Shown piece after piece: positions 35,336-59,445 of a stretch of DNA of 64,000 nt (positions within the stretch are counted from its first letter, which is position 1; each line of letters starts with the position of its first letter). Source of the stretch: Gammaproteobacteria bacterium (GTDB taxonomy: Bacteria; Pseudomonadota; Gammaproteobacteria; Legionellales; Legionellaceae); NCBI GenBank assembly GCA_024742995.1, contig JANSXK010000002.1:198232-262231 (forward strand), written 5' to 3'. The position numbers were made by a program, and so were the translations under genes. The notes beneath the pieces are model-generated. The model was not told the DNA's origin. It did not search any database and saw only the letters and a program-made list of their open reading frames with translations.

Positions 35336-38300
35336 GTGCTTACCACAGATGACATTCAAGCATTATCGCGAGAAGAACAAGAATTGTTTTTTTTGCTTTT
35401 ACAGGAAGAAGGGATCGACCTTCAGTCTTCGCCAATTACGCCCCAAACAACAGATCAATCATCCTATCCTTTGTCGTATGCACAGCGTCGAATATGGCTT
35501 TTAAATCAATTAGATCCAAAAAGTACTGCATATCATATGTTTGGTGTGTTGCACCTGAACGGAGCCGTTGATCACGCTGTACTTGCGCGATCTTTTGGTG
35601 AGGTGATAAAACGACATGATATACTACGAGCTTCTTTTCATATAGAAGATAATCATCCGATCATGAGGATAAATGACTCATGTGCTTTTCAGTTAAAATG
35701 GGTCGATTTTTCATATTTGCAGACCGATGAGTCGAATGCCACTGTTCAAGATATTATCCGTGAAGCGCATATGCAAGCATTTGATTTATCGCAACCAGGG
35801 TTGATCCGGGCTTCTTTGGTCAAGCTCTCAGATATTAAATATTTATTATTATTTGCAACCCATCATATTATTGCAGATGCTTGGTCTTTGAATGTTTTAA
35901 TTCGTGAACTGAGTCATTTTTATCAATCCATGGGAGCAGGACATACGGATGGTTTACCTGAGCTGCCTATTCAATATTCTGATTATGCAGTGTGGCAACA
36001 AAATTTATCACAAAGCTTTGAGTTTAATAAAAGCGTTGCGTATTGGATAAAGCAACTAAAAGATGGCGAAAACACTTTGAATTTACCTGCGGATGCAATG
36101 AGGCCTCCTTTGCAAACGTCAAAAGGTAAAAAGCTGATGTTCACAATTTCAGAGGCGCTCAGCGATAAAATCAAAGCCTTGAGTTCCTCAGCTGATGTTA
36201 GTTTATTTGTGTTGTTACTATCCGTATTTCAAGTGTTGCTCTTTCGTTATTCCAGTCAAACCAACTTTATGATTGGCTCTGTGATTAGTAATCGAAATCG
36301 TCGTGAATTAGAAGCTTTGATAGGGTTGTTTGCTGATACCTTGGTTCTAAGAACTGATTTGTCGGGGAATCCAACATTTCAGGAACTATTAATCAGGACA
36401 AAACGAATTGTTTTAGAAGCATTTCAGCATCAAGCGGTTCCATTCGATCTCATTGTTGAAAAACTCAATGTGAAAAGAGAACTCAGTCATCATCCTCTTT
36501 TTCAGGTTATGTTTGTTTATGAGAGTCGTTCTGAACATTTTAATATAGCCGATATTCAAGGAGAACAATTAGAGTTTGAGTCAGGGCATGCGAAATTTGA
36601 TTTGACTTTTTTTGTTGAAGACAAAGGGGCGTTTCTAAGTGGCGCTATTGAATATAATATTGATTTATTTTTACCAGAAACGATTCATAGTTATTTAGAA
36701 AGTTATTTGGCCTTGTTAGAAAATATTAGCATTGATGCCAGTAAAAAAATATCAGAATTACCCTTGGTAAGGGAACAACAAGCAAAAAAACTCTTGTCTT
36801 GGCAAGATGATTCAGGTCCCGCAAAAAATTTCTGCTTACATCAGTACTTTGAGAAATGGGTGGATTTAACACCTAATGAAATCGCTGTGTCTTTTATGGG
36901 ATTAGAGATTAGTTATCAACAGTTGAACCAACGTAGCAATGAAATCGCTCATAAATTAATTCAATTGGGGGTAAAAAAGAATCAATTTGTGGCAATCATG
37001 CTGGAAGTTGGTATTGACCAAATTGCTGCTCTTTTAGCAGTTTGTAAATCTGGGGCAGGTTTTATTTGTTTAGATCAGCATTACCCTAAGCTACGTTTGA
37101 TGCAAATATTGGAGGAAGTAAAGCCGTTTTGCGTGATTTCAGATGCTTCTAGTTTAAAGAGTCATCATCAAAATTTTTTACTTGCTCAGCAAGAGGCACA
37201 TTACGAGGCTTCTATTATCAATCTTTCTGAAGATGATGTTTTGGATGTTTTTACAGGGAACCCTAAAGTTGATGTTGTACCCAGTGATCCCGTTTATATT
37301 GTTTATACATCGGGCTCGACGGGTAAACCTAAGGGTATTTTGCAGACACATGGTTGTTCAATACAGTATATGGAGTGGCAAAGCAATCAATTTCAAATCC
37401 AACCTAAAAAACGTATGGCGCAATGGGCATCCATTACCTATGATGCGTCTTACAGCGAAATTTTTGGTGCACTTTGTTTCGGAGCAACGTTATGTGTCAC
37501 GGCGCCTTTGGATAGAAGAGATCCAAAAGTAATGATGGGTTGGCTCGAATTGGCTAAGATAACAGTGATCCAATTGGTGCCAAGTTTTTGTAAGCTTTTA
37601 TTACAGTGCATGATTGCTGAATATGCAACAAAACAAACGCACGTACTGGAAAACTTGGAGTATGTTTTGCTTGCAGGGGAGAGTCTGCCCGTTAAGCTGG
37701 CACGTGAGTTTCAGGGATACTTTAATCATAAGACAAAACTTTATAATCTCTATGGCCCTAGTGAAATTGTGTTGGCCACCCAGTATTGTGTTGATAACTT
37801 GCCGCCTGCTTTAACCAATATTTCTATCGGTGCGCCATTTGTGGGTAGACAAATTTTGATATTAGATAGCCACGGTGCACTTTGCCCATTGCGAGTTCCT
37901 GGCGAAATTTATATTAAAAGTCCTTATTTGACACAAGGGTATTTCCAGCAACCTGAGGAGACAGGAAAAGTTTTTATTCAGAATCCACTGCATGATGATT
38001 ATCCTGATAGGGTATACAAAACAGGTGATCGAGGACGTTGGCTGAATGAACATGAAATTGAATTTTTAGGAAGAAAGGATAATCAAGTTAAAATTAGAGG
38101 TAGTCGTGTTGAAGTTGGGGAAGTTGAAGCCGTGCTTTTAAGGCATGAGGCTGTTCGTGAAAGTGCAGTGATTGTTAAAAGACATTTCGATGATACGGTT
38201 TATTTGGATGCATTTGTTTCTGGTGAACGTGAGATTGATACCCAAGTTCTCAAGAATTTTTTGGTGAGCTATTTGCCAACTTATATGATGCCATCCCATA

Positions 38301-38713
38301 TTTTTTTCCTTGAAAATTTTCCTCGTACCATTAGTGGAAAAATCGATCGAAAAATGCTGGCGGTACAATCTTATGAAAGGCAAGAAACGTCGGAGACTGC
38401 AGTAGCTCCAGAAAATGAAATTGAGAAAGATATCGCAGCTGTTTGGCAAGCACTTCTTGGTGTGTCTTCGGTTTGTGTGAATAGCAACTTTTTTGATCTT
38501 GGTGGGCACTCATTGTTGTTGGTTCAGGTCCAGATGGCATTGAGTGTGCGATTGAAGCAAAATATAGCGTTGATAGATCTATTTAAGTACCCCACCATCA
38601 AATCTTTAGCGAATTTTTTGAGTCAAACAACGGAATTTGCTTTACCACAGGGTCAACAGCGCGCTCTTTTGCGCAAAAAATTATCAAAACGGCGACACAA
38701 TTTAACTGTATAA
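35336..38713 (+). CDS. NRPS module C-A-T (1125 aa)
   Basis: GTG start after AAAGGAGAG. The C domain has HHIIADAWS. The A domain has IVYTSGSTGKPKG, YDAS, NLYGPSE, YKTGDRGRW and GKIDR. The T domain has FFDLGGHSLL. Confidence 0.95.
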   Translation: MLTTDDIQALSREEQELFFLLLQEEGIDLQSSPITPQTTDQSSYPLSYAQRRIWLLNQLDPKSTAYHMFGVLHLNGAVDHAVLARSFGEVIKRHDILRASFHIEDNHPIMRINDSCAFQLKWVDFSYLQTDESNATVQDIIREAHMQAFDLSQPGLIRASLVKLSDIKYLLLFATHHIIADAWSLNVLIRELSHFYQSMGAGHTDGLPELPIQYSDYAVWQQNLSQSFEFNKSVAYWIKQLKDGENTLNLPADAMRPPLQTSKGKKLMFTISEALSDKIKALSSSADVSLFVLLLSVFQVLLFRYSSQTNFMIGSVISNRNRRELEALIGLFADTLVLRTDLSGNPTFQELLIRTKRIVLEAFQHQAVPFDLIVEKLNVKRELSHHPLFQVMFVYESRSEHFNIADIQGEQLEFESGHAKFDLTFFVEDKGAFLSGAIEYNIDLFLPETIHSYLESYLALLENISIDASKKISELPLVREQQAKKLLSWQDDSGPAKNFCLHQYFEKWVDLTPNEIAVSFMGLEISYQQLNQRSNEIAHKLIQLGVKKNQFVAIMLEVGIDQIAALLAVCKSGAGFICLDQHYPKLRLMQILEEVKPFCVISDASSLKSHHQNFLLAQQEAHYEASIINLSEDDVLDVFTGNPKVDVVPSDPVYIVYTSGSTGKPKGILQTHGCSIQYMEWQSNQFQIQPKKRMAQWASITYDASYSEIFGALCFGATLCVTAPLDRRDPKVMMGWLELAKITVIQLVPSFCKLLLQCMIAEYATKQTHVLENLEYVLLAGESLPVKLAREFQGYFNHKTKLYNLYGPSEIVLATQYCVDNLPPALTNISIGAPFVGRQILILDSHGALCPLRVPGEIYIKSPYLTQGYFQQPEETGKVFIQNPLHDDYPDRVYKTGDRGRWLNEHEIEFLGRKDNQVKIRGSRVEVGEVEAVLLRHEAVRESAVIVKRHFDDTVYLDAFVSGEREIDTQVLKNFLVSYLPTYMMPSHIFFLENFPRTISGKIDRKMLAVQSYERQETSETAVAPENEIEKDIAAVWQALLGVSSVCVNSNFFDLGGHSLLLVQVQMALSVRLKQNIALIDLFKYPTIKSLANFLSQTTEFALPQGQQRALLRKKLSKRRHNLTV

Positions 38714-39604: not shown

Positions 39605-39642
39605 GTCGTACATTAGGAAAGTTCAAAAGGGAGTTGAATCAG

Positions 39643-42600
39643 ATGGAATCTAGTATAGCTGTAATTGGAATGGCAGGACGATTTCCTGGTGCTGAAACGT
39701 TACCGCAGTTTTGGCGTAACCTGATCAATGGGGTTGAGACCATTCGTTTTTTTTCTCAAGACGAATTGACGCCTTCTTATACTGATCCTGTATCTTTTTC
39801 GCATCCTGATTATATCGGAGCGCGTGGCATATTAGAAAATATTGATATGTTTGATGCGGGATTTTTTAATATTAATCCCCGTGAAGCAGCGGTTATGGAT
39901 CCACAACATAGGCTTTTTTTAGAGTGTGCATGGGAAGCACTTGAGCACTCAGGTTATATGCCTGGATGTAGTTCTGGCACAATTGGTGTTGTTGCGAGTA
40001 GTTATCATAATACTTACTTGTTAAATAATCTGTACTCCAATACATCACTGATGACATTGGTGGGGGGAGATGTGATTATGCATGGTAACGCACATGATCA
40101 TTTGGCCACTCACGTCGCGTATAAATTAAATTTATCAGGCCCGAGTTTGACGGTGCAAACAGCATGTTCATCATCGTTAGTTGCAGTGCATCTCGCATGC
40201 CAGCAATTGTTAAACGGTGAATCTGACGTGGTATTGGCGGGAGGTGTTTGTGTCAATGTTCCGGAAAAATCCGGATATTTATATCAAGAAGGGGGCATTT
40301 TTTCCTCTGATGGACATTGCCGTGCTTTTGATGAGAAAGCTCAGGGCACGGTATTTGGTAATGGCCTGGGCATTGTGGTACTAAAGCGCGTGGATGAAGC
40401 ACTTGCGGCGGGGGATTGTATTCACGCGGTTATTAAAGGGACGGCCATCAATAATGATGGTGCAGCTAAAGTCGGTTATATGGCGCCGAGTGCCGAAGGT
40501 CAAGCAGCTGTCATAACAGAAGCTTTGGCTGTTGCAGATGTCGACCCTGAAACGATTGCGTACATAGAAGCACATGGTACAGGAACTGCTATGGGAGATG
40601 CTATTGAAGTAGCGGCATTGACATCAGCTTATGGTCACGCGACTCAAAAGAAAAATTTCTGTGGAATCGGTTCAATCAAAACCAACATTGGGCATCTGAA
40701 TGCAGCATCAGGTGTTGCGGGATTAATAAAGACTATTTTATCTTTACAGCATAAAATATTGCCCCCTACTTTAAATGCAAATAACCCAAACCCAAATTTA
40801 AATATAGAAGATAGCCCTTTTTATATTCATTCACAATGTACGGATTGGGTGGATGGTAAGTTTCCACGACGTGCAGGTGTGAGTTCATTTGGTGTCGGGG
40901 GTACGAACGCGCATGTGATTCTTGAGGAAGCACCAAGGACCCAAGCCACAATAGAGTCAGGACCGCAGCTCATTATTTTGTCTGCAAAAACATCAACAGC
41001 GCTGGAGGAGATGACTGCGAATTTTATTCGCCACTTAGAAGATTATCCTGATCAAACGCTTTCAGACGTTGCTTTTACATTGCAAGTGGGTCGGCAAGCG
41101 TTTTCACATCGAAGGATGATTGTTGCCCAAGAGCGTGATGTGTTGATACAGCAATTGGCCAACCATGATAAAAACCATGTATTTACCCAGCGGCTATCTG
41201 AGTCGAGCTCGAAAAAAATAGTCTTCATGTTTTCGGGTCAAGGATCACAATACGTGAATATGGCCAGTGATTTATATCAGCAGCAGCCTATGTTTCGCCA
41301 ACATATTGATTATTGTTCGGAACAATTAATACCACATTTAGGTTTGGATTTACGAACAGTGTTGTATTGTGAGTCACAAGAGCAAATAGAGAAGTCTTCC
41401 GAGTTGTTGACACAAACAGCACTAGCTCAGCCTGCTATTTTTGTGATTGAGTATGCTTTAGCCAGGTTGTGGATGGCTTGGGGCATTGAGCCGGACTATA
41501 TGATTGGACATAGCATTGGTGAATATGTTGCTGCGTGTTTGGCTGGCGTTTTTGAATTAGAGGATGCATTAGAATTAGTCGCTTTGCGTGGTCAAATAAT
41601 GCAAAATGTGCCGGAAGGATCTATGTTGGCTGTGGCGTCTTCTGCAGAAAAAATAGAGCCTTTGATCATTGAGAAACCGCTTTGTGTTGCAGCAATAAAT
41701 ACCTTTACCTCTTGTGTGATATCTGGTGAATGTTTGGCGATTAACGATTTGCAAACATGTTTGACAGCAGAAGGAATTTCTCACCAATTGCTCCATACAT
41801 CGCATGCATTTCACTCGTGTATGATGGACGGTATATTAAAAGAGTTTGGCTCCAAATTAAAGTCATTACAATTACAGTCTCCGCAAAGGTTGTATGTTTC
41901 TAATTTGACTGGAAAACTGATCACAGATGAAGAAGCGACGGATCCAAACTATTGGGTCAATCATTTGCGGCATACTGTTTTATTTGCAAAAGGTGTCGAA
42001 TCACTTCTCATGCAGTCGCCTGAAGAAAGGGCGTTGATATTTTTAGAAGTGGGCCCTTCTAATGCTTTGAGTACTATGATACGCCAAGTTGTATCGCCCA
42101 TGAATCATCATGAAGTGATATCGTCATTGAGACACCCAAAGAAAGTAGAACATGATCTGGTTGTATTACTTAGGGCTTTAGGACAGCTTTGGTTGCATGC
42201 TGGCACTGTTATTCATTGGCAAATGGTTCATGATGAGCCGAGTGGTCGGGTGCCATTACCTACTTATCCATTTGAGCGGAGTTCCTATTGGATAGAGCCT
42301 CAGTATTCAAGTGTTATCGCTGAAAAAGGCGATCAATTAGGCAAAAATCAGAATAGCTTAGAGTGGTTTTATTTACCGAGTTGGAGGCAAGCCGTATTAC
42401 CCTTAAATCATCATCTGTTTACCGAGGCGGATGAATGGTTGATATTTGAGGATTGCTGTGGAGTAAGTGACAGTATTATTGAATATTTGTTAGATCATCA
42501 ACAACGCGTGACAAGAGTGGGTGGTGGTGAAACATGGAGCTGTATTGACTCGAGCACTTTTGCTATTGACTTTCAAATGCCAGAGCATTACGAAGCGTTG

Positions 42601-44214
42601 TTCGATGCACTTTCGAAGCAAAACAGATGTCCTAAGAAAATTTTATATTTTCCAACTGTGACGATGGTTACGAAAAAAAGTGAGGATATGACTCCAAGGG
42701 TCGATTATTCCCATTTTCACCAATTGCTTTATATTGCCAAATCCCTAGGCGCAACATTTAAGAATGCGCCAATAAACTTATATGTTTTGACAAATAATAT
42801 GCAAGAAATAAGGGGGCAGGATTTATTGTGTCCAGAAAAAGCCACTGTTTTAGGGCCATGTCGTGTGATTGGTCAAGAATATCCGACAGTGACATGTTCG
42901 TGTATAGATGTTGAACTGCCTACATCCAGTCAGCAGTCGCATGAGCTTACAAAGCAACTTTTGCAAGAATTTACGTCCGAGACGAGTGATACTGTGGTTG
43001 CTTATCGGGGGCGTTATCGTTGGATACAAACCTTTTTACCCTGGAAAGCACAGTCATCCACCAATATAGAGGCACTGTCTCTCTTGCGAAAGAAAGGGGT
43101 ATATTTTATTACTGGGGGTTTAGGAGGCATTGGCTTAACTTTGGCTGAGTATTTTGCTGAAACGTGCCAAGGGACGATTATTTTAACAAGTCGTTCTGAA
43201 TTTCCAGAAAGATCAACATGGACGGATTGGCTAGAGCAAAAAGAAGAAAGTAACAAAGTGAGTCAAATCATTAAAAAACTGTTGCAAATAGAGGCATATG
43301 GGGCAACAGTTTGTGTTTTGTGCGCTGATGTGACTGAGGAATCGTCGATGCGCGGAGCAATAGATCATGTTCATCAGCATTATGGAGATATCCACGGGGT
43401 GGTGCATGCTGCCGGTCTTGCTGGGGGGGGATTGATTCAAGTAAAAACGAAGTCGGTGTCTGAAGAAGTCTTGAATCCTAAGATCCGTGGTGCGATGGTT
43501 TTGGGTAAGGTATTGGAAGGATCACGATTAGATTTCTTATTATTTTGTTCCTCTATCAATGCACTGCTCAATGCTATTGGTCAAGCGGATTATTGTGCTG
43601 CAAATGCTTTTTTAGATAGTTATGCGCATTATTTAAGGGCTACTACAGGGGTTTTTGCTGTTAGTGTGAACTGGGATACTTGGCAAGAAGTGGGTATGGC
43701 GGTAAACACATCAGTGCCGGATGCTTTAAGAGCATTACGAGATGAAAGTTTAAAGCAGGGAATACGTCCAGACGAGGCAAAACGTGTATTTCGTTATATT
43801 CTTGCCGCAAAATTACCACAGATTATTCTCTCAACCCAAGATTTAACAGCAGTGATGAAACAACATCAAGATGTCACTATGGCAATGTTGGATGAATATT
43901 CTGACCGAAATAAAAAGACTGTGGTGTCGCATCACAGACCTGATTTGAAGGTTGCATATATTGCGCCTAGTAATGAGATGGAATGTAGGGTTGCGGCGAT
44001 ATGGGAAGAGTTGCTTGATATTAAAGGGATTGGTATCGAAGATAATTTTTTTGATTTGGGTGGTCATTCTTTGCTTGCCAGTCAAATTTTGGCCAGATTA
44101 CGAGAAGCCTTTGGAGTAGAAATACCTCTGGATGTTATTTTTGACAAACCCACGATTGCAGATATGGCAATCATTGTTGAAGATAAAATTTTGGAAGAAA
44201 TTGAGATGGCGTAG
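39643..44214 (+). CDS. Type I PKS module KS-AT-KR-ACP
   Basis: KS (about 39646-40932) has TACSSSLVA, EAHGTGT and NIGHLNAASG. AT (about 41215-42288) has GHSIGE and HAFHS, the malonyl-type signature. KR (about 42355-43713) has ITGGLGGIG, SSINA and YCAANAFLD. ACP (about 43975-44178) has FFDLGGHSLLA. ATG 39643 is preferred over TTG 39634. Confidence 0.95.
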   Translation: MESSIAVIGMAGRFPGAETLPQFWRNLINGVETIRFFSQDELTPSYTDPVSFSHPDYIGARGILENIDMFDAGFFNINPREAAVMDPQHRLFLECAWEALEHSGYMPGCSSGTIGVVASSYHNTYLLNNLYSNTSLMTLVGGDVIMHGNAHDHLATHVAYKLNLSGPSLTVQTACSSSLVAVHLACQQLLNGESDVVLAGGVCVNVPEKSGYLYQEGGIFSSDGHCRAFDEKAQGTVFGNGLGIVVLKRVDEALAAGDCIHAVIKGTAINNDGAAKVGYMAPSAEGQAAVITEALAVADVDPETIAYIEAHGTGTAMGDAIEVAALTSAYGHATQKKNFCGIGSIKTNIGHLNAASGVAGLIKTILSLQHKILPPTLNANNPNPNLNIEDSPFYIHSQCTDWVDGKFPRRAGVSSFGVGGTNAHVILEEAPRTQATIESGPQLIILSAKTSTALEEMTANFIRHLEDYPDQTLSDVAFTLQVGRQAFSHRRMIVAQERDVLIQQLANHDKNHVFTQRLSESSSKKIVFMFSGQGSQYVNMASDLYQQQPMFRQHIDYCSEQLIPHLGLDLRTVLYCESQEQIEKSSELLTQTALAQPAIFVIEYALARLWMAWGIEPDYMIGHSIGEYVAACLAGVFELEDALELVALRGQIMQNVPEGSMLAVASSAEKIEPLIIEKPLCVAAINTFTSCVISGECLAINDLQTCLTAEGISHQLLHTSHAFHSCMMDGILKEFGSKLKSLQLQSPQRLYVSNLTGKLITDEEATDPNYWVNHLRHTVLFAKGVESLLMQSPEERALIFLEVGPSNALSTMIRQVVSPMNHHEVISSLRHPKKVEHDLVVLLRALGQLWLHAGTVIHWQMVHDEPSGRVPLPTYPFERSSYWIEPQYSSVIAEKGDQLGKNQNSLEWFYLPSWRQAVLPLNHHLFTEADEWLIFEDCCGVSDSIIEYLLDHQQRVTRVGGGETWSCIDSSTFAIDFQMPEHYEALFDALSKQNRCPKKILYFPTVTMVTKKSEDMTPRVDYSHFHQLLYIAKSLGATFKNAPINLYVLTNNMQEIRGQDLLCPEKATVLGPCRVIGQEYPTVTCSCIDVELPTSSQQSHELTKQLLQEFTSETSDTVVAYRGRYRWIQTFLPWKAQSSTNIEALSLLRKKGVYFITGGLGGIGLTLAEYFAETCQGTIILTSRSEFPERSTWTDWLEQKEESNKVSQIIKKLLQIEAYGATVCVLCADVTEESSMRGAIDHVHQHYGDIHGVVHAAGLAGGGLIQVKTKSVSEEVLNPKIRGAMVLGKVLEGSRLDFLLFCSSINALLNAIGQADYCAANAFLDSYAHYLRATTGVFAVSVNWDTWQEVGMAVNTSVPDALRALRDESLKQGIRPDEAKRVFRYILAAKLPQIILSTQDLTAVMKQHQDVTMAMLDEYSDRNKKTVVSHHRPDLKVAYIAPSNEMECRVAAIWEELLDIKGIGIEDNFFDLGGHSLLASQILARLREAFGVEIPLDVIFDKPTIADMAIIVEDKILEEIEMA

Positions 44215-46583: not shown

Positions 46584-46590
46584 AACAGTT

Positions 46591-51968: not shown

Positions 51969-54900
51969 ATGACAGATTCACGGACAGAAAAAGAGAAGTT
52001 AAGTCAACGATATGCCAAATTATCTTCTGAGCAAAGGCAAGCATTACAGGCGCGTCTATCTGGAGACAAACCTGCTTCTCATTCCATTCAAATATTGCCA
52101 CGGACTTATCCGTTGCCTGCGTCATTTTTTCAGGAAAGCTTGTGGTTACAGCAAGAATTTGAAGCGAATACAGTCGCTTATAATTTACCCGTTGCTTTCA
52201 GATTGGTCGGCTCTCTGAATACTGAGGCTCTTGATTGGGCCATTAATCAAATTATCAATCGTCATGAAATACTTAGGACGACGTTTTCACTAATAGATGG
52301 CCATTTGATTCAAATCATTGCGCCTGAATTGGAGTTAGGTGTAGCACGTATTGATTTGTCTTCGTGCGTGCTTGAAGATCGTCATCATCAGGTCGAACAC
52401 ATTATCAGAGAAGAAGCGCAAAATGTATTTGATCTAGAAAAAGGTCCACTCTTGCGTACAACGTTAATTCGGTTGACAAAAACAGAGCATATTGTTTCGT
52501 TATGTATGCACCATATTATTTCTGATGGCGTTTCAAAAGATATTTTGGCGACTGAATTAGTAAGGTTTTATACAGCTTTTTTTCAAAGAAAATCTGAGCC
52601 TTGTGAACCGCTCCCTCTGCAGTATGCCGATTTCGCCCTTTGGCAAAGACATCAATTCGCAGAAGGTAGATTGCGACCACAATTAGAGTATTGGTTGAAA
52701 CAGCTTTCTCATTTACCTGCAAGTTTAAGCTTGCCTGTAGATAAACCTTATCTTCCAGAGCGCCAAGTAGAAGGGGAACGGGTATTTTTTTCATTTGATA
52801 AAGACCTGTATGCAAAAGTAAAAATGTTTTGTCAGCAGGAAGGCGTTACTTTATTTATGTTTCTAATTGCTGTGTTCAAAGTGTTGTTATTTCGTTATTC
52901 AGGACAAGAAGATATTGTTATTGGTACGCCTGTCTCAAATCGAAAATTCAAAGAATTGGAAAAATTAATTGGGTTTTTTACCAATACGTTGGTACTTCGT
53001 TCTTGGCCTCAAGGGGATATGCCGTTTCACGCATTCCTTCAAGCATTAAAGCAAACAGCATTAGATGCTTATCGTCATCAGGATTTGCCGTACGAAAAAC
53101 TAGTGTCAGCATTACAGCCGGAGCGTTTTGCAAATCAATCAGCTATCTTTCAATCAATGTTTATTTTTCAGAAAGAAGCACAAGAACATATTAATATACA
53201 AGACCTATCAGTGAGTCATTTTTTTGCTGAAGATAATGGTGCTAAATTTGATCTGTCCCTAGTTGCGGTTGAAAACACTGATACCATAGAGTGTTATATT
53301 GAATATGCAACGGATTTATTTTTTGAAAAAACGATAGAAAGCATGGGCAATCATTTTATCCAACTTGTACAAAATGCAATTCAGAATCCTCAGTGTCCGT
53401 TACAAAGCATTGTTTTGTTAACCGACGATGAAAAAAAACAAATAATAAAAAACGCTGCAGGACCTAAAGTATCTCATGATCTTGTGAAAGGTATTCATCA
53501 ATTATTTGAGGAGCAAGCTATCAAGACACCTGCTGAAATAGCGATAGTTTGTGGTTCTTCAAGTTTGAGTTTTGGAGCGTTAAATGCCAAAGCCAACCAA
53601 CTAGCATATTATTTGAAAGATCAAGGTGCGACGAGCGAAACATTAATTGGTATTTGTGTTGGGCGTTCGTTAGAAATGATGATTGGTTTGCTTGCGGTGT
53701 TAAAGTCAGGTGCTGCTTATGTACCACTTGATCCTAGTTATCCCAAAGCACGTTTAGCGCATATTTTGCATGATTCAAAACTTAATATGCTCCTGACGGA
53801 AGAAAGATTTTGTCCTCAATTTGATGTTCTAAATGAAGCCACGCAACCCCGTGTCTGTATGGATCTAAAAACATTATTGCCTGATTTGATCAACTATAGC
53901 ACAGATAATTTAAACTTACCTATTGCCGATAATCAGCTTGCGTATGTGATTTACACATCAGGATCTACAGGCAAACCTAAGGGTGTGATGGTAGAACATC
54001 GGCATGTCGAAAACTTCATGTTAGGTATGGATAATAGTCTCGGACCAAACGTTGGCACTTGGTTGGCTGCTACCAGCATATCATTTGATATTTCAGTGTT
54101 GGAATTATTTTGGACATTGTCTCGTGGATTTAAGGTTGTTCTGACGGAATCTGAAACAAATGCCACTTCAATGGCGCAACAAAAGGATAAGACTACCATT
54201 GATTTCAGTTTGTTTTATTTTTCTAGTGTAGATGAGCAATACCAAGATAAATATCAATTATTAATTGATGGTGCAAAGTTTGCTGATAATCATGGATTTA
54301 AAGCTATATGGACACCCGAAAGACACTTTCAAAAATTTGGTGGGTTGTTTCCTAATCCTTCAGTCATTTCTGCAGCACTTGCTATGGTGACAAAGAACAT
54401 TCAGCTTCGTGCTGGTAGTTGTGTCATGCCACTACACCATCCTAGTAGAGTGGCTGAAGAATGGGCCGTTGTTGATAATCTTTCACAAGGACGTGTGGGT
54501 ATTTCATTTGCGTCAGGTTGGCAACCCAATGATTTTATTTTTGCGCCTCAGCACTACGAAGCAAGACAATCCATTTTGATAGAACATATTGAAAAAGTTA
54601 GGGCATTATGGCGAGGTGAATCATTAAAGTTTAAAGGTGTTGATGAACGTAGTGTTGATATTCAAATTTATCCAAGACCTGTTCAATCCGAATTGCCATT
54701 TTGGTTAACAAGTTCAGGAAATCCGGAAACGTTTCGCAAATCAGGAGAGATAGGCGCAAATTTGTTGACCCATCTATTGGGGCAGTCGGTTGACGAATTG
54801 GCTGAAAAGATACAAATTTATCGTTCAGAATTTCAAAAACATCATGGTCATGTAAATAAAGGAACCGTGACATTGATGATTCATACTTTTGTATCCAAAG

Positions 54901-57557
54901 ATGAGGATTATGTATTACGTCAAGTCAAAGAGCCGCTGAAGAATTATTTGAAAGATGCTATTGGATTATTAAAACCTTTTGCTGAAGCGAGCGGTAAAGA
55001 TATCAAAAACATTTCAAAAGATGATTTGGATGCTGTTCTTGAGCATGCTTTTTCACGTTATTATCAAACCAATGGTTTGTTCGGCACGCCTGAAAGTTGT
55101 ATGAAAATGATTGATCAACTGCAAGCAATTGGTGTTGATGAGATCGCGTGCTTGGTTGATTTTGGTATATCTGATGAAATCGTGCTTAAAAACTTGAGCT
55201 ACCTTAATGAATTAAAAGAGAAAATGAAGCCCAAAGCTGCAAGTATGCCTGAAGAAATTGCGACACTGATGCGTCAGCATCATGTGACACACTTTCAATG
55301 TACACCAATGGTGGCTCATTTGCTTTCTGGGAATGCTGATGTAAAACATCAATTACAATCTTTAACCCACATGCTTGTTGGAGGGGATGATTTCCCGTTA
55401 TCTTTGGCCAATGCGCTAACCAAACTGATTAAGGGTGATGTTTATAATATGTACGGGCCTACAGAAACAACCGTGTGGTCAACAGTAAAAAAATTATCTA
55501 AGATCACTGACGCTGTTTCCATCGGTAAGCCCATTTCCAACACACAAGCGTATATTCTAGATGCAAACATGCAATTATTACCTAGAGGAATCTTGGGGGG
55601 GCTTTATATTGGTGGTGCTTCAGTAGCGCGCGGATATCTTAATCAGGCTGAATTGACGAGCCAGAGATTTGTTGAAACTGAGGTTGAAGAAGGTTGTGTT
55701 GAACGTCTTTATAGTACAGGCGATCTTGCGAAATATTTACCTGATGGCACCCTGAAATATATGGGCAGAAATGACAATCAAGTAAAAATCCGTGGATTTA
55801 GAATTGAATTGGGTGAAATTGAAAGTATTGCCATACAGCACCCTTCTGTATTAGAAGCTGTTGCTGTTGTACATGAAGATGAGCAATTTATTAAAACAAT
55901 TGTTTTGTATTATACATTGGTTCATAGCAATGCCTTGCCTAATGCGAGAAGTGCGGCGGAAAGCATCAAGCAATTTTTGGGACAATCCTTGCCGTCTTAT
56001 ATGATTCCCGTACATGTGTTCAATATAGCGGCTTTACCTTTAACGTCTAATGGAAAAATTGATCGCTGCTCCTTAGTTTCACAGGAGATGCCTCTGGATG
56101 CTACGATCGATCAGCATGCTCATGTGTTACCTCGGTGCCATGAAGAGATTATTTTAGCAAGTATTTGGCGTAGAATACTTAAAATCAAGCAAATAAGTAT
56201 CCATGATAATTTTTTTAATCTGGGTGGAAATTCTATCTTAGCTATTGAGATGTTATCTTTAGCAAGAGAAGCAAACATTCATTTATCACCAAGACATATT
56301 TTTCAATATCCTACCATTGCAGAATTGATTACACAGCGAGAGATTGATGTTGCAAGGTTGAAAAATGTCACATTACTATTACCTGATGCGCAAATTGAAA
56401 ATCTATCACCAAACTTTCCTTTTAAAGCAAAACCAGTTCAAAATATATTTTTAACGGGTAGTACAGGATTTTTGGGAAGGTTTATATTACATGACTTGTT
56501 AAAAACCAATTCAAAATTGAAATTGTATTGTTTAATCAGAGCTACTGATGAACAACATGCCCTGTCTCGGCTTAAACAAAATCTAGAACGGTATGGTCTT
56601 TGGAATGAGCAGTATTTAGAACGAGTTGTTTTTATATTGGGCGATATTTCTCGAGAGCGATTTGGATTAGAGATTCAACAATATGAAGACCTGTGTTGTG
56701 ACATAGACACTATTGTGCATTGTGCAGCAATGGTAAATTTGGTGCAAACTTATGAGCAATTAAAACCGACTAATATTGAGGGTGTGCAGCATATATTAAA
56801 ATTTTCATGTTGCGGTGCATTGAAACCAGTTCACTATATTTCGACATTAAAAGTTTTTTCTAAGGTTACAGATGAAAAAATAAAATATGAAGATGCTGAT
56901 TTGATGCATGAGACAGTTTTAGAAGGGGGGTATGCTCAAACCAAATGGGTAGCAGATCAAATGATGTTGCAAGCCCGAGAGAAAGGATTACCTATTAACA
57001 TTTACCGACCGGGTAGCGTTAGCGGCAGCAGTCAGACAGGGGCTTGGAATACGCAGGGTTTTGCCTGTCGTATGCTGAAAGGATGTATACAATTGGGTGT
57101 GGTGCCAAAAACTCAAGTAACAACTGATTTCACGCCAGTAGATTATGTCAGCAGCGCTGTAGTCCATATTCTACTAGACGAAGTGAATTTAGGACAAACC
57201 TTTCACTTAAGACATTCTTCGCTAATCTCGATTAGAGATATGGTGCAACGTGCTCGCGAAATGGGATACGTTTTACAAGAACTTTCTTATGCAGAATGGT
57301 ACCAAAGGTTGATTCATTCGCTACAAGATGAGGAGAATGAATTACATACACTCATTGGCGTGTTTGATTCTGATCCAGAATTTGATCCTTGGCGAGGCGA
57401 GCAGTTCGAAGTGAATGATGATAATACCCATCGTGCGCTTGTTCATACAAAGATGACTCGCAGTTATGAGCAGAATCAATTGTTAAGCGTTTATTTTAAT
57501 TACTTGATGGCAGGAAGTTTTTTACCGATGCCTGCAAAAGAAACTGCTGCAGTATAA
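51969..57557 (+). CDS. Terminal NRPS C-A(Gly)-T-R, with the A domain interrupted by a luciferase-like monooxygenase domain
   Basis: The C domain has MHHIISDGVS. The A domain has VIYTSGSTGKPKG and SFDISVLE, then a ~340-aa insert, then TPMVA.., NMYGPTETTVW, YSTGDLAKY and NGKIDR. The T domain has FFNLGGNSILA. The R domain has LTGSTGFLGRF and YAQTK. Confidence 0.95.
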   Translation: MTDSRTEKEKLSQRYAKLSSEQRQALQARLSGDKPASHSIQILPRTYPLPASFFQESLWLQQEFEANTVAYNLPVAFRLVGSLNTEALDWAINQIINRHEILRTTFSLIDGHLIQIIAPELELGVARIDLSSCVLEDRHHQVEHIIREEAQNVFDLEKGPLLRTTLIRLTKTEHIVSLCMHHIISDGVSKDILATELVRFYTAFFQRKSEPCEPLPLQYADFALWQRHQFAEGRLRPQLEYWLKQLSHLPASLSLPVDKPYLPERQVEGERVFFSFDKDLYAKVKMFCQQEGVTLFMFLIAVFKVLLFRYSGQEDIVIGTPVSNRKFKELEKLIGFFTNTLVLRSWPQGDMPFHAFLQALKQTALDAYRHQDLPYEKLVSALQPERFANQSAIFQSMFIFQKEAQEHINIQDLSVSHFFAEDNGAKFDLSLVAVENTDTIECYIEYATDLFFEKTIESMGNHFIQLVQNAIQNPQCPLQSIVLLTDDEKKQIIKNAAGPKVSHDLVKGIHQLFEEQAIKTPAEIAIVCGSSSLSFGALNAKANQLAYYLKDQGATSETLIGICVGRSLEMMIGLLAVLKSGAAYVPLDPSYPKARLAHILHDSKLNMLLTEERFCPQFDVLNEATQPRVCMDLKTLLPDLINYSTDNLNLPIADNQLAYVIYTSGSTGKPKGVMVEHRHVENFMLGMDNSLGPNVGTWLAATSISFDISVLELFWTLSRGFKVVLTESETNATSMAQQKDKTTIDFSLFYFSSVDEQYQDKYQLLIDGAKFADNHGFKAIWTPERHFQKFGGLFPNPSVISAALAMVTKNIQLRAGSCVMPLHHPSRVAEEWAVVDNLSQGRVGISFASGWQPNDFIFAPQHYEARQSILIEHIEKVRALWRGESLKFKGVDERSVDIQIYPRPVQSELPFWLTSSGNPETFRKSGEIGANLLTHLLGQSVDELAEKIQIYRSEFQKHHGHVNKGTVTLMIHTFVSKDEDYVLRQVKEPLKNYLKDAIGLLKPFAEASGKDIKNISKDDLDAVLEHAFSRYYQTNGLFGTPESCMKMIDQLQAIGVDEIACLVDFGISDEIVLKNLSYLNELKEKMKPKAASMPEEIATLMRQHHVTHFQCTPMVAHLLSGNADVKHQLQSLTHMLVGGDDFPLSLANALTKLIKGDVYNMYGPTETTVWSTVKKLSKITDAVSIGKPISNTQAYILDANMQLLPRGILGGLYIGGASVARGYLNQAELTSQRFVETEVEEGCVERLYSTGDLAKYLPDGTLKYMGRNDNQVKIRGFRIELGEIESIAIQHPSVLEAVAVVHEDEQFIKTIVLYYTLVHSNALPNARSAAESIKQFLGQSLPSYMIPVHVFNIAALPLTSNGKIDRCSLVSQEMPLDATIDQHAHVLPRCHEEIILASIWRRILKIKQISIHDNFFNLGGNSILAIEMLSLAREANIHLSPRHIFQYPTIAELITQREIDVARLKNVTLLLPDAQIENLSPNFPFKAKPVQNIFLTGSTGFLGRFILHDLLKTNSKLKLYCLIRATDEQHALSRLKQNLERYGLWNEQYLERVVFILGDISRERFGLEIQQYEDLCCDIDTIVHCAAMVNLVQTYEQLKPTNIEGVQHILKFSCCGALKPVHYISTLKVFSKVTDEKIKYEDADLMHETVLEGGYAQTKWVADQMMLQAREKGLPINIYRPGSVSGSSQTGAWNTQGFACRMLKGCIQLGVVPKTQVTTDFTPVDYVSSAVVHILLDEVNLGQTFHLRHSSLISIRDMVQRAREMGYVLQELSYAEWYQRLIHSLQDEENELHTLIGVFDSDPEFDPWRGEQFEVNDDNTHRALVHTKMTRSYEQNQLLSVYFNYLMAGSFLPMPAKETAAV
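54195..55223 (+). other. Luciferase-like (FMN-dependent) monooxygenase domain inserted in the A domain
   Basis: IDFSLFYFSS...YQLLIDGAKFADNHGFKAIWTPERHF.KFGGLFPNPSV..AALA..T..I.LRAGS.V.PLHHP.RVAEEWAVVDNLS.GRVGISFASGW is the classic LLM-fold N-terminal signature. Boundaries are approximate and were derived by counting residues 743-1085. Confidence 0.8.
56436..57554 (+). other. Thioester reductase (R) domain
   Basis: The SDR Rossmann motif is TGSTGFLG, the catalytic YAQTK (YxxxK) is present, and length and position after the T domain fit. Boundaries are approximate. Confidence 0.8.
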
Positions 57558-57570
57558 TAGGATTAGAACT

Positions 57571-59445
57571 ATGTGTGGAATTACGGGTGTATTTGATACA
57601 AAAGGGTTTCATAGGGTTGAACGGCAGATCATATCAAAAATGTCGCAAAAGTTATTGCATCGTGGGCCAGATGAAAATATGGTGTTTTGTAAAGACGATA
57701 TAGGTTTTGGTTTCGAGCGGCTGAGTATTATTGATATTGAGCATGGTATGCAACCTATGTTTAATGAGAATAAAACCATTATGAGTGTTTGTAATGGTGA
57801 AATATATAACTATCAAGAACTACGTGCCGAGCTGATTTTAAAAGGTCATAAATTCTTAACTCATTCGGATGTGGAGGTGTTGACGCATCTTTATGAGGAA
57901 TATGGCAGTGATTTTATAAATAAACTAAATGGACAATTTGCTTTCGTTATTTATGACATTACAAAAAAGCGCTTGATTGCTGCTCGGGATCATTTTGGTA
58001 TCGTCCCTTTTTTTTACTGTTTTTTTGATGGTTTATTTATTTTTGGCTCTGAGATCAAGGCTATTTTGGAGCATCCGAGTGTCATTAAAAAAGTGAACTT
58101 GTTTGGACTTGATCAAGTTTTCACTTTTCCTGGATTGATCAGTCCCACAACAATGTTTCAGGATATTCATAGTCTCCCAAGCGGGCATTTTATGGAGGTT
58201 TCCTGTCGTAATAATGATCCTATTATTGTCGAGTATTGGGATTTAATGTATCCAAAGTTAGGTGAGATTTCCTATCGTTCGGATGAAAATTATTATTTAG
58301 AACACTTAAGTGATTTGTTAACAAAATCCATTAAATATCGATTGCAATCGGATGTTCCTGTGGGGTTTTATGTGAGTGGTGGTTTGGATTCTTCTATTGT
58401 ATTGTCTTTGGCCAAGAGGTTGAACTATGAGGAAGCACAAAAAACATTTTCCATCACTTTTCCACATAGTGCAGAGATTTCTGAAACGAAGTACCAACAA
58501 GCAATGGTTGACCATTGTGCATCTCAGCATCATGCGTATGCATTTAAGCCGGAGGATATTTCTAATCGAATTGAGAAAGTGATTTACCATACAGAGTGCC
58601 CTTTGAAAGAGAGTTATAATACAGCAGCGCTTGCACTATCTGAAAGTGTGAAAAACGCGAATATTAAAGTTGTGTTGGCTGGTCAAGGGGCGGATGAATT
58701 GTTTGCAGGGTACAATGGTTATAAATTTGATCATTACCTTGCCAATGGCCTGATTGAGGGAGAGCAGGATGAAAAAGATTTAAAACTGAATCATACGTTG
58801 TGGGGTGATAGAAACTTTTACTATGAAAACCGTCTGCATCATTTTGGTGTGGCCAAGTTCAAATTATACTCTGAGCATATTAATGCCAATCGCACAAAAG
58901 CAGATAGTCTCAATCAGTTTGTCATTAACAAAGATAGATTAACCGATATTGATCCTATTCATAGACGCTCATACATTGATTTGAAGCTTCGCTTATCAGA
59001 TCACTTGTTAGGTGATCATGGTGATAGGATGGTATTGGCTAATTCAGTAGAAGGTCGTTACCCTTTTTTGGATAAAGATTTTGTGGCATTTGTTACAACA
59101 ATCCCGCCATCGCTTAAGCTTAAAGAACTTAATGAGAAATATATTTTAAAAAAAATGGCAGCAGGACTGTTACCCAAAGACATCATCAATCGAGAAAAAT
59201 TTGGTTTCACTGCGCCGGGCAGCCCTTATTTATTAAGGCAAAATGATGAGTATGTTCATGAGATGTTATCGATAGACAACATTAAAAAACAAGGGTATTT
59301 TGATCCCACTGAAATTGCTGCACTTAAAAAGAAATATATGCATCCAAATTTTAAAATTAATGCGCCTTTTGAAAGTGATTTGCTTATGACTGTGTTAACA
59401 TTCAATATTTTTTTAGACAAATTTAAGATGCCTAATTATGTTTAG
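57571..59445 (+). CDS. Asparagine synthetase B-type glutamine amidotransferase (624 aa)
   Basis: MCGITGVFD nucleophile, PP-loop SGGLDSS, and a long C-terminal synthetase domain. Confidence 0.9.
   Translation: MCGITGVFDTKGFHRVERQIISKMSQKLLHRGPDENMVFCKDDIGFGFERLSIIDIEHGMQPMFNENKTIMSVCNGEIYNYQELRAELILKGHKFLTHSDVEVLTHLYEEYGSDFINKLNGQFAFVIYDITKKRLIAARDHFGIVPFFYCFFDGLFIFGSEIKAILEHPSVIKKVNLFGLDQVFTFPGLISPTTMFQDIHSLPSGHFMEVSCRNNDPIIVEYWDLMYPKLGEISYRSDENYYLEHLSDLLTKSIKYRLQSDVPVGFYVSGGLDSSIVLSLAKRLNYEEAQKTFSITFPHSAEISETKYQQAMVDHCASQHHAYAFKPEDISNRIEKVIYHTECPLKESYNTAALALSESVKNANIKVVLAGQGADELFAGYNGYKFDHYLANGLIEGEQDEKDLKLNHTLWGDRNFYYENRLHHFGVAKFKLYSEHINANRTKADSLNQFVINKDRLTDIDPIHRRSYIDLKLRLSDHLLGDHGDRMVLANSVEGRYPFLDKDFVAFVTTIPPSLKLKELNEKYILKKMAAGLLPKDIINREKFGFTAPGSPYLLRQNDEYVHEMLSIDNIKKQGYFDPTEIAALKKKYMHPNFKINAPFESDLLMTVLTFNIFLDKFKMPNYV

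What the first reader, a model, noticed from the sequence alone, without database searches (positions are those of the whole stretch)
51969..57557. A glycine A domain split by a luciferase-like monooxygenase, followed by T and a reductase instead of a TE
The A domain runs normally through the A3 motif (YTSGSTGKPKG) and the FDxS motif (SFDISVLE). It is then interrupted by ~340 aa with an LLM-fold signature (nt ~54195-55223) and resumes at VTHFQCTPMVA...NMYGPTETTVW. I aligned it by eye to the GrsA landmarks (FDxS; ITVIT278LPPT; LI299TA301G; NA322YGPTETTI330C331; K517). The specificity residues read D-I-L-Q-L-G-M-V-W-K, which matches 8 of 10 positions of the canonical Gly code DILQLGLIWK. An A(Gly) domain with a monooxygenase inserted between A4 and A5 is the arrangement described for MtaG/MelG in myxothiazol and melithiazol biosynthesis. 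There, alpha-hydroxylation of the tethered glycine leads to a terminal amide, but those modules end in a TE. Here the module ends in an apparently intact SDR reductase (TGSTGFLG, YAQTK). If both domains are active, the release chemistry could be a reduced alpha-hydroxyglycyl thioester, an aldehyde, or amide formation with the R domain doing something else. As far as I know, none of these has been described.
Basis: partly seen in the sequence, partly recalled or inferred. Interest (0 to 1): 0.8.

Follow-up and report, generated by a model that had tools for sequence, protein, structure and literature searches.

The report
Glycine-oxidising NRPS end module with reductase
The last enzyme of an uncharacterised lipopeptide-polyketide pathway in a Legionella-like bacterium loads glycine, hydroxylates it with a built-in flavin oxygenase and ends in a reductase rather than the usual hydrolase, a real and recurrent domain combination whose product nobody has yet determined.

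Summary
ORF 51969-57557 (1862 aa) reads C - A(A1-A4) - luciferase-like monooxygenase (TIGR04020, 504 bits) - A(A5-A10) - T - thioester reductase (TIGR01746, 325 bits). All core motifs are intact. The specificity code is DILQLGMVWK, the standard code of about 129 MOx-split glycine A domains. The MOx sits between a4 and a5, as reported for MtaG/MelG. It keeps 92 of 93 near-invariant family columns. The R domain keeps TGxTGFLG, the Ser/Thr and YxxxK.

The gene is the last synthetase of a tight nine-gene operon in a Legionellales-like MAG. Four orthologues (65-75% identity) show the same architecture, and the two whose contigs I read show the same gene order.

The combination is not unique. A(MOx)-T-R modules occur in at least four further lineages, including actinomycetes. 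The corallorazine paper (2024) noted MOx-split Gly A domains next to T-reductase in 38 Serratia/Pseudomonas clusters. I found no characterised product for any of them.

Most likely mechanism (inferred): alpha-hydroxylation of the tethered N-acyl-glycine, then reductive rather than hydrolytic off-loading, giving a C-terminal primary amide plus a C2 aldehyde. Retention or cyclisation of the hydroxyglycinal is a serious rival.

Verdict: a new variant of a known kind, of moderate interest.

The parts
51969..57557 (+). Whole gene: terminal NRPS module C-A(MOx)-T-R, 1862 aa
   Evidence: ORF list and translation; Pfam and NCBIfam domains; identical to P0001 'MAG: Gammaproteobacteria bacterium'
52113..53444 (+). 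Condensation domain (aa 49-492), HHIISDG at aa 181-187
   Evidence: PF00668 E 5.6e-110; motif
53505..54164 (+). N-terminal part of the adenylation domain, motifs A1-A4 (aa 513-732)
   Evidence: PF00501 stretch 1, profile positions 1-243 of 384; A1, A2, A3, A4 located
54204..55217 (+). Embedded FMN-dependent luciferase-like monooxygenase (MOx; aa 746-1083), inserted between A4 and A5
   Evidence: TIGR04020 1-341/341, 504 bits; PF00296; PDB 6KET PuwE E 1.6e-121; agrees with 92 of 93 columns that are >=95% conserved in 130 MOx domains
55248..56078 (+). C-terminal part of the adenylation domain, motifs A5-A10 (aa 1094-1370); with the N-terminal part it gives the code DILQLGMVWK
   Evidence: TIGR01733 and PF13193; motifs; code
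56154..56330 (+). Thiolation (carrier) domain, aa 1396-1454, LGGNS serine at aa 1422
   Evidence: PF00550 E 1.1e-12; motif
56442..57521 (+). Terminal thioester reductase (SDR; aa 1492-1851) with TGSTGFLG, YIST, YAQTK
   Evidence: TIGR01746 325 bits, PF07993 E 1.5e-68; alignment to MxaA 4U7W E 2.6e-79; motif conservation in nine R-bearing homologues
35336..38713 (+). NRPS module C-A-T (code DASQLALLAK, substrate unknown); first gene of the operon
   Evidence: Pfam; code; homologue lies directly upstream of AspH-PKS-C-A(MOx)-T in L007
38726..39604 (+). Asp/Arg-hydroxylase-family 2OG oxygenase, nearest to the lipid 2-hydroxylases OlsC and LpxO
   Evidence: PF05118 E 2.4e-49; NCBIfam OlsC/LpxO below cut-off
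39634..44214 (+). PKS module KS-AT(HAFH, malonyl-type)-KR-ACP; probably feeds the terminal module
   Evidence: Pfam; AT motif; a PKS lies immediately upstream of C-A(MOx)-T-R in L005, L006 and L007
44261..45814 (+). Glutamine-dependent AsnB-type amidotransferase (517 aa, MCG start)
   Evidence: Pfam and NCBIfam; N-terminus; conserved in L001 and L003
45855..46583 (+). Asp/Glu-type amino-acid racemase
   Evidence: PF01177; TIGR00035 below cut-off; conserved in L001, L003, L007
46561..51900 (+). Initiation synthetase FAAL-ACP-C-A(Gly, DILQLGLVWK)-T
   Evidence: Pfam; code; conserved in synteny
57571..59445 (+). AsnB-type amidotransferase (624 aa), 13 nt downstream of the target; conserved in the family only
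   Evidence: TIGR01536 471 bits; 68-82% identical in L001, L003, L007 and absent from L005 and L006
59472..60260 (+). Discrete type II thioesterase; last conserved gene of the operon
   Evidence: PF00975 E 9.5e-41; conserved in L001, L003, L007; a TE gene is also near the module in L006

Best explanation
This is the chain-terminating module of a hybrid fatty-acyl/NRPS/PKS assembly line in a Legionellales-like bacterium. Shown by sequence: a C domain, a glycine-type A domain, an intact FMN-dependent luciferase-like monooxygenase looped out between A4 and A5, a carrier domain, and an intact MxaA-type thioester reductase. Inferred mechanism: (1) the A domain loads glycine on the T domain; (2) the C domain couples it to the upstream chain, most likely the beta-hydroxyacyl product of the KS-AT-KR-ACP module; (3) the MOx uses reduced FMN and O2 to hydroxylate the glycyl C-alpha, giving an N-acyl-alpha-hydroxyglycyl thioester (a carbinolamide), as proposed for MtaG/MelG/FshJ; (4) the R domain takes the place of their TE and uses NAD(P)H to cleave the thioester reductively. 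It acts either on the intact carbinolamide, giving N-acyl-alpha-hydroxyglycinal or the diol, or on the glyoxylyl remnant left after the amide has departed. Either way the net product is a C-terminal primary amide, and the glycine carbons leave as glyoxal or glycolaldehyde instead of glyoxylate. The discrete type II TE would serve as an editing or back-up enzyme.
For: Domain identities and intact motifs. Gly code: DILQLGMVWK, shared by nearly all of 129 MOx-split A domains, which read DILQ[L/M]GM[I/V]WK. The literature reports that FshJ is called Gly-specific once the MOx is excised (PMC13548996). Insertion site: between A4 (aa 706-709) and A5 (aa 1160-1166), the same as reported for MtaG/MelG, where hydroxylation gives a terminal amide (PMC10204066; PMC11411415). 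Both catalytic domains appear to be under purifying selection in five orthologues: MOx 78-83% and R 59-68% identity, against 27-57% in the linkers. The MOx+R pairing occurs in at least three groups whose MOx domains are nearer to non-R MOx domains than to each other, plus P0254 and the crz-like clusters. That pattern argues for a working combination. A PKS lies directly upstream of the module in L005, L006 and L007, as MtaF precedes MtaG (from my own knowledge).
Against: No product is known for any A(MOx)-T-R module. N-acyl-alpha-hydroxyglycine can be stable: solanimycin B, spergualin and skyllamycin retain it (PMC10204066). About 22 multimodular NRPSs carry a MOx-split A domain and no R, many with further modules after it, so the carbinolamide often survives downstream processing and need not collapse. 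If only an amide were needed, a TE would suffice, and releasing glyoxal is not obviously advantageous. An AsnB amidotransferase sits immediately downstream and could make amides by another route. No flavin reductase gene was identified in the operon.
Confidence: 0.45

Rival explanations
1. The alpha-hydroxyglycine is retained. R reduces the intact N-acyl-alpha-hydroxyglycyl thioester, and the resulting alpha-hydroxy-aldehyde (or 1,2-diol) is trapped intramolecularly. The trap could be the beta-hydroxyl from the KR step or an upstream amide N, giving a cyclic N,O-acetal or hemiaminal or, after dehydration, a heterocycle. That would be a new end group rather than a plain amide.
For: R-generated aldehydes cyclise to hemiaminals in corallorazine biosynthesis. 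MOx-split Gly A domains occur at positions followed by further modules in many multimodular NRPSs, and solanimycin B keeps its alpha-hydroxyglycine, so the carbinolamide can persist. Repeated pairing of MOx with R rather than TE in separate lineages hints that reduction adds something hydrolysis cannot.
Against: No such product is known. Acyclic amide-glyoxal adducts are reversible (general chemistry, my inference). The authors who saw MOx+TD in crz-like clusters predicted truncated linear products instead.
Confidence: 0.27
2. Hydroxylation is partial or skipped, and the module mainly acts as an ordinary C-A(Gly)-T-R (MxaA/MxcG-like). It would release an N-acyl-glycinal or, after four-electron reduction, an N-acyl-ethanolamine. 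The amide would be only a side product.
For: The R domain's best structural relative is MxaA (E 2.6e-79), which I recall makes an alcohol. The second half of the protein aligns to the myxochelin synthetase MxcG model (627 bits, below cut-off). Solanimycin A arises by skipping the MOx step.
Against: MOx is the best-conserved catalytic domain among the orthologues (78-83%). It keeps 92 of 93 near-invariant positions, which is hard to reconcile with a dispensable domain.
Confidence: 0.15
3. The R domain is catalytically idle or structural. Release is MtaG-like hydrolysis performed in trans by the discrete thioesterase encoded at 59472-60260.
For: A TE gene is conserved with the module in the family and lies near it in L006. 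In L007 the R region is called as a separate 278-aa fragment.
Against: NAD(P)H motif, Ser/Thr and YxxxK are conserved in the target, its four orthologues and the three actinomycete-group proteins; only P0127 deviates (TRATGFLG, YVRSR). R identity (59-68%) is far above linker identity. L007 is fragmented throughout (C, A and T called separately; AspH and PKS split), so its R break looks like an assembly error. Discrete type II TEs are usually editing enzymes (general knowledge).
Confidence: 0.08

Closest known systems
MtaG / MelG (myxothiazol, melithiazol) and FshJ (fischerazoles): C-A(MOx)-[nMT]-T-TE amide-forming termination modules
   Same: Terminal module with a glycine-type A domain and a luciferase-like MOx inserted between a4 and a5. 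A PKS probably lies upstream. The expected chemistry is alpha-hydroxylation of tethered N-acyl-glycine.
   Different: Those modules end in a TE that is proposed to hydrolyse the glyoxylyl thioester. This one ends in an intact SDR thioester reductase, with a TE present only as a separate gene.
Corallorazine-like (crz) clusters of Serratia/Pseudomonas with MOx inside the Gly A2 domain plus Crz2 T-TD (PMC11342130)
   Same: Gly A domain + MOx + T + terminal thioreductase. This is the only published notice of the combination that I found.
   Different: That is a different pathway: Cstarter-A(Ser)-T-CmodAA-A(Gly), with the T-TD on a second ORF and no PKS. It was noted only bioinformatically, no product is known, and the authors guessed truncated linear products.
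SolF module 4 of solanimycin biosynthesis
   Same: Gly-activating NRPS module with an embedded flavin monooxygenase that makes alpha-hydroxyglycine.
   Different: There the MOx is inserted between a8 and a9, the module is internal, and the hydroxyglycine is retained and extended.
MxaA (PDB 4U7W) and MxcG terminal reductase domains
   Same: Same SDR thioester-reductase family, with the nucleotide motif and catalytic residues conserved.
   Different: Those act on ordinary aminoacyl or peptidyl thioesters. Here the substrate is expected to be an alpha-hydroxylated glycyl (carbinolamide) or a glyoxylyl thioester. Identity to MxaA is only about 39%.
PuwE monooxygenase domain (PDB 6KET), puwainaphycin pathway
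   Same: Closest solved structure of the MOx (E 1.6e-121). It is proposed to hydroxylate alpha to a carrier-bound thioester.
   Different: PuwE's MOx is a separate domain between the aminotransferase and the NRPS module, acting on a beta-amino fatty acyl chain. It is not embedded in a Gly A domain.

Membership tests
MtaG/MelG-type amide-forming termination module | Glycine-specific adenylation domain | tested here: met
   Code DILQLGMVWK, 8/10 to the canonical DILQLGLIWK and identical to the consensus of MOx-split A domains. No biochemical test was done.
MtaG/MelG-type amide-forming termination module | Luciferase-like monooxygenase inserted between A-domain motifs a4 and a5 | tested here: met
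   FDIS at aa 706-709, MOx at aa 746-1083, NMYGPTE at aa 1160-1166. The a4-a5 site for MtaG/MelG is taken from PMC10204066.
MtaG/MelG-type amide-forming termination module | C-terminal thioesterase domain that releases the glyoxylyl remnant | tested here: not met
   There is no PF00975 domain in the protein. The C-terminus is PF07993/TIGR01746 reductase. A TE exists only as a separate gene at 59472-60260.
MtaG/MelG-type amide-forming termination module | Product carries a terminal (carbox)amide whose N comes from glycine | not testable with these tools
   Needs product isolation or isotope feeding.
NRPS/PKS terminal thioester reductase (TIGR01746, MxaA type) | Rossmann nucleotide motif TGxTGFxG | tested here: met
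   TGSTGFLG at aa 1496-1503
NRPS/PKS terminal thioester reductase (TIGR01746, MxaA type) | Catalytic Ser/Thr-Tyr-Lys triad on alignment to a solved R domain | tested here: met
   HYISTLKV and GGYAQTKW align with MxaA HYVSTVSV and GGYAQSKW. The assignment of these residues as the triad rests on general SDR knowledge.
NRPS/PKS terminal thioester reductase (TIGR01746, MxaA type) | Full-length match including the C-terminal subdomain, above the curated cut-off | tested here: met
   TIGR01746 1-370/371, 324.6 bits against a cut-off of 213; 4U7W residues 55-419 aligned
NRPS/PKS terminal thioester reductase (TIGR01746, MxaA type) | NAD(P)H-dependent 2- or 4-electron reduction of the thioester | not testable with these tools
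   Needs an enzyme assay.
TIGR04020 natural-product luciferase-like monooxygenase | Full-length profile match above cut-off with the family's near-invariant residues retained | tested here: met
   504.2 bits against a cut-off of 244, profile 1-341/341. 92 of 93 columns that are >=95% conserved are retained; the single deviation is A->S at aa 925.
Corallorazine (crz) gene-cluster family | Bimodular Cstarter-A(Ser)-T-CmodAA-A(Gly) NRPS with crz3-6 acyl-chain genes | tested here: not met
   The cluster here is FAAL-ACP-C-A(Gly)-T, C-A-T, KS-AT-KR-ACP, AsnB x2, racemase and a 2OG hydroxylase. No Ser-type code was found in the three A domains. Only the terminal A(MOx)-T-R logic is shared.

The most novel reading that the evidence does not exclude
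The MOx-R pair is not just another way to make a primary amide. It would be a dedicated device that delivers an N-acyl-alpha-hydroxyglycinal, a masked glyoxal at the 1,2-dicarbonyl oxidation level. This is then kept in the natural product as a reactive warhead, or cyclised to a new N,O-acetal, hemiaminal or heteroaromatic end group. That release chemistry has not been described for any NRPS.
Probability: 0.25. Interest if true: 0.7.

Novelty: new variant of a known kind. Interest (0 to 1): 0.5.

Why it matters
Chain release decides the end group, and often the pharmacophore, of nonribosomal peptides and polyketides. In the literature I could search, the only described logic for a MOx-split glycine module at the end of a line is hydroxylation, loss of a terminal amide and TE hydrolysis of glyoxylate. 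An intact reductase in place of the TE recurs in separate lineages: a Legionellales-like family, actinomycetes, several metagenomic lineages, and the crz-like clusters of Serratia and Pseudomonas. It must therefore yield either a reductive route to primary amides, useful as a TE-free amidation module for engineering, or a new aldehyde- or hemiaminal-type terminus. The locus offers a compact single-protein test system (A(MOx)-T-R), five natural orthologues for comparison, and an entry into the barely explored natural-product chemistry of Legionella relatives.

Tried and rejected
(1) The genome-contig scan with the MOx-to-R region found only one unrelated Pleurocapsa NRPS, so it gave no named close relative. 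I inferred taxonomy instead from the AtpD 90% cluster, which holds Legionellaceae and Legionella MAGs.

(2) The exhaustive representative search was dominated by giant multimodular NRPSs whose many A-T repeats sum to high scores. It gave only one further MOx+R protein (P0254) and is not a true census.

(3) A Biopython NJ tree of 130 MOx domains timed out. I replaced it with nearest-neighbour identities.

(4) The literature search for 'luciferase-like monooxygenase' + 'thioester reductase' + 'adenylation' returned nothing. The MelG/MtaG/'reductive release' search added nothing new. Two Legionella natural-product surveys do not describe this cluster. The bosamycin 'monooxygenase domain' is a P450 and irrelevant. 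The hectoramide/vatiamide terminal amidation uses a different, unrelated domain.

(5) I considered that the MOx might hydroxylate the upstream polyketide alpha-carbon, as PuwE does. I rejected this as less likely because a domain embedded in the A domain should serve that module's own T domain, which carries glycine. MOx sequence similarity cannot discriminate: the target's median identity to the other 128 MOx domains is about 56%, and the PuwE match is of similar strength.

(6) I considered a non-redox R* (Dieckmann-type) domain and rejected it because the catalytic Tyr and Lys are present.

(7) The ATP-grasp gene at 60354-62642 is not part of the cluster, since it is absent from the syntenic loci L001 and L003.

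(8) The substrate of the C-A-T module at 35336-38713 (code DASQLALLAK) could not be assigned.
Full report
**1. What is in the sequence**

The coordinates 51969-57557 are one ORF of 1862 aa on the + strand.

Pfam and NCBIfam give an unambiguous domain order:
- Condensation, aa 49-492, E 5.6e-110.
- AMP-binding in two stretches. The first, aa 513-732, covers profile positions 1-243 of 384. The A domain resumes at about aa 1094 (TIGR01733).
- The luciferase-like monooxygenase between them: PF00296 at aa 755-1058, and TIGR04020 'MupA/Atu3671 natural-product LLM' at aa 746-1083 over the full 341-position model (504 bits, cut-off 244).
- AMP-binding_C at aa 1283-1363.
- PP-binding at aa 1396-1454.
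- NAD_binding_4/TIGR01746 thioester reductase at aa 1492-1851 (325 bits, cut-off 213).

All canonical motifs are present: HHIISDG, A1-A10, the carrier LGGNS, TGSTGFLG and YAQTK. The insert lies between A4 (FDIS, aa 706-709) and A5 (NMYGPTE, aa 1160-1166).

**2. Substrate code**

A MAFFT alignment to GrsA-PheA gives DILQLGMVWK, with or without the insert. It returned DAWTIAAICK at positions 235-517, which validates its numbering.

I then extracted the same ten positions from 129 other MOx-split A domains found. Nearly all read DILQ[L/M]GM[I/V]WK.

The initiation synthetase in the same operon has an uninterrupted DILQLGLVWK domain. The literature reports that the MOx-split FshJ domain is called Gly-specific once the insert is removed (PMC13548996). 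Glycine is a well-supported prediction, but it has not been tested biochemically.

**3. Are MOx and R intact?**

The MOx matches the solved PuwE monooxygenase domain (6KET) at E 1.6e-121. It agrees with the consensus at 92 of the 93 columns that are at least 95% conserved across 130 MOx domains. The only deviation is Ala to Ser at aa 925.

The R domain's best solved relative is MxaA (4U7W, E 2.6e-79, about 39% identity). The nucleotide motif, the YIST Ser/Thr and the YAQTK Tyr/Lys align.

Among the five orthologues, identity to the target is as follows:

| Region | Identity |
|---|---|
| MOx | 78-83% |
| T | 78-92% |
| C | 69-80% |
| A (N-terminal part) | 68-75% |
| A (C-terminal part) | 62-73% |
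| R | 59-68% |
| Linkers | 27-57% |

Both tailoring domains are therefore maintained by selection. This is not a redox-dead R* domain.

**4. Context**

The gene is seventh in a tightly packed nine-gene operon, with gaps of 68 nt or less. The gene order is:
- C-A-T (code DASQLALLAK, substrate unassigned).
- An OlsC/LpxO-like 2OG hydroxylase.
- KS-AT(HAFH)-KR-ACP.
- A 517-aa AsnB-type amidotransferase.
- An Asp/Glu-type racemase.
- FAAL-ACP-C-A(Gly)-T.
- The target.
- A 624-aa AsnB.
- A type II TE.

Upstream, on the opposite strand, lie GNAT, MATE and choloylglycine-hydrolase-family genes, and then the ATP synthase operon.

NCBI labels the identical protein only 'MAG: Gammaproteobacteria bacterium'. 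The window's AtpD falls in a 90% cluster with Legionellaceae and Legionella MAG proteins. The host is therefore a Legionellales-like organism, which fits the 37-46% GC.

Orthologous contigs L001 and L003 keep the order PKS-AsnB-racemase-FAAL synthetase-target-AsnB-TE.

A more distant relative is L007 (53% identity), whose assembly has many split gene calls. It has C/A/T-hydroxylase-PKS directly followed by C-A(MOx)-T, an R fragment and AsnB. This supports the assembly order FAAL-Gly module, then C-A-T, then PKS, then the terminal module. The predicted scaffold is fatty-acyl-Gly-X-(CHOH-CH2-CO)- followed by the processed glycine. That scaffold is an inference.

**5. How unusual is C-A(MOx)-T-R?**

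Outside the family I found these proteins with the same architecture:
- P0132 (Actinophytocola xinjiangensis), P0168 (Nonomuraea sp.) and P0130, which form one group.
- P0127, from a JGI metagenome. Its R motifs are less canonical (TRATGFLG, YVRSR).
- P0254, a 3263-aa multimodular NRPS that ends in A(MOx)-T-R.

In L005 and L006 a PKS again sits directly upstream.

The MOx domains of the three R-bearing groups share 46-55% identity with each other. Their nearest non-R MOx domains, TE-bearing or other, share 55-63% with them. The pairing has therefore been assembled more than once.

Among the 129 proteins analysed carry R (5 of them the target family) and 9 carry TE. By their Pfam lists, the rest have no release domain, a formyltransferase, an FkbM-type methyltransferase or further modules.

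Published precedent exists. The corallorazine study reports a MOx within the Gly A2 domain in 38 crz-like clusters. Its text attributes them to Serratia and Pseudomonas, and Table S3 also marks one Deinococcus cellulosilyticus cluster. In these clusters the NRPS ends in Crz2 = T-thioreductase (PMC11342130). The authors only speculated on truncated linear products.

I found no characterised product or enzymology for any A(MOx)-T-R module in the searchable literature. Subscription-only papers were not searchable.

**6. Mechanism**

Established or published: MtaG, MelG and FshJ are C-A(MOx)-[nMT]-T-TE modules. Glycine is proposed to be alpha-hydroxylated on the carrier, the upstream chain leaves as an amide, and the TE hydrolyses the glyoxylyl thioester. 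Related MOx domains are proposed to hydroxylate alpha to carrier-bound thioesters in puwainaphycin biosynthesis.

Inferred here: the same hydroxylation occurs, followed by NAD(P)H-dependent thioester cleavage.

MOx-split A domains also sit at positions followed by further modules in many large NRPSs, and solanimycin B retains alpha-hydroxyglycine. The carbinolamide thioester is therefore probably long-lived enough for R to act on the intact chain. The first released species would then be N-acyl-alpha-hydroxyglycinal, or the diol after a second reduction as with MxaA.

I judge collapse to the primary amide plus glyoxal or glycolaldehyde the most likely fate (0.45). Intramolecular capture into a new end group is the main rival (0.27). 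A mainly non-hydroxylated aldehyde or ethanolamide product (0.15) and an idle R with trans-TE hydrolysis (0.08) are less likely, given the conservation data.

The downstream AsnB is family-specific. It is absent from L005 and L006, so it is not part of the MOx-R logic.

**7. Verdict**

The module works like an MtaG/MelG amide-forming terminator but fails that family's defining TE feature. It shares its terminal logic with the MOx-bearing crz-like clusters, but not their pathway.

It is a new variant of a known kind. The architecture has been seen before, and the chemistry has not been determined. Interest is moderate (0.5): a specialist would want the experiment, but would not be astonished.

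Noticed in passing
proteins P0135-P0231 (e.g. P0144, P0209, P0223; Methylibium, Caldimonas, Ignavibacteriales MAGs): A large, widespread group of ~1550-aa proteins combines formyltransferase domains (PF00551/PF02911) with a MOx-split glycine A domain and a T domain. N-formyl-glycine that is then alpha-hydroxylated is not a chemistry I know to be described.
   Followed up: no
P0131, P0133, P0169 (Nostoc), P0052, P0058: C-A(MOx)-T proteins that also carry an FkbM-type methyltransferase domain (PF05050). This may O-methylate, and so stabilise, the alpha-hydroxyglycine.
   Followed up: no
P0258, P0259, P0272, P0284, P0288, P0353, P0399 and others: MOx-split A domains sit inside 4000-7000-aa multimodular NRPSs with further modules after them. 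Alpha-hydroxyglycine would then be passed on rather than cleaved, which runs against the textbook 'MOx = terminal amide' reading.
   Followed up: partly
window 38726-39604 (+): The OlsC/LpxO-like 2OG hydroxylase has a ~95-aa N-terminal extension containing 'LTPDKQRLLKERLDG'. This resembles the N-terminus of the target ('LSSEQRQALQARLSG') and the C-terminus of the FAAL synthetase ('LSPEEVRSLLEEKR'). It may be a docking element that recruits the hydroxylase to the assembly line.
   Followed up: no
window 31001-31921 (-); L007 20292-21350: A choloylglycine-hydrolase/penicillin-V-acylase family gene lies next to a pathway that starts by making fatty-acyl-glycine. It could remove an N-acyl(-Gly) cap in a prodrug-type activation. 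L007 carries only a weak (24%) counterpart.
   Followed up: partly
window 44261-45814 and 57571-59445 (+): Two glutamine-dependent AsnB-type amidotransferases (both start MCG) sit in one operon, one paired with an Asp/Glu-type racemase. Their roles are unknown (precursor supply, or side-chain or terminal amidation).
   Followed up: partly
window 24808-29256 (-) and 29294-30520 (-): ORFs of 1482 aa and 408 aa have no Pfam hit. The large one is a singleton cluster in the 15-billion-protein collection. They may be effector-like proteins, as is typical of Legionella relatives.
   Followed up: no
window 35336-38713 (+) and 46561-51900 (+): The C domains of the other two synthetases have HHIIADA and HHIGCDL instead of HHxxxDG. 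The A domain of the first has an unassignable code, DASQLALLAK.
   Followed up: partly
L007 (contig_8033, 3.8 Mb): A rearranged version of the same cluster carries an extra A-T-TE protein and a PF00175 NAD-binding (flavin-reductase-like) gene. Nearly every large gene is split, which suggests a long-read assembly with frameshift errors.
   Followed up: partly
window 60354-62642 (-): A 762-aa protein with two ATP-grasp regions lies just past the cluster. It is not conserved in the syntenic loci.
   Followed up: partly
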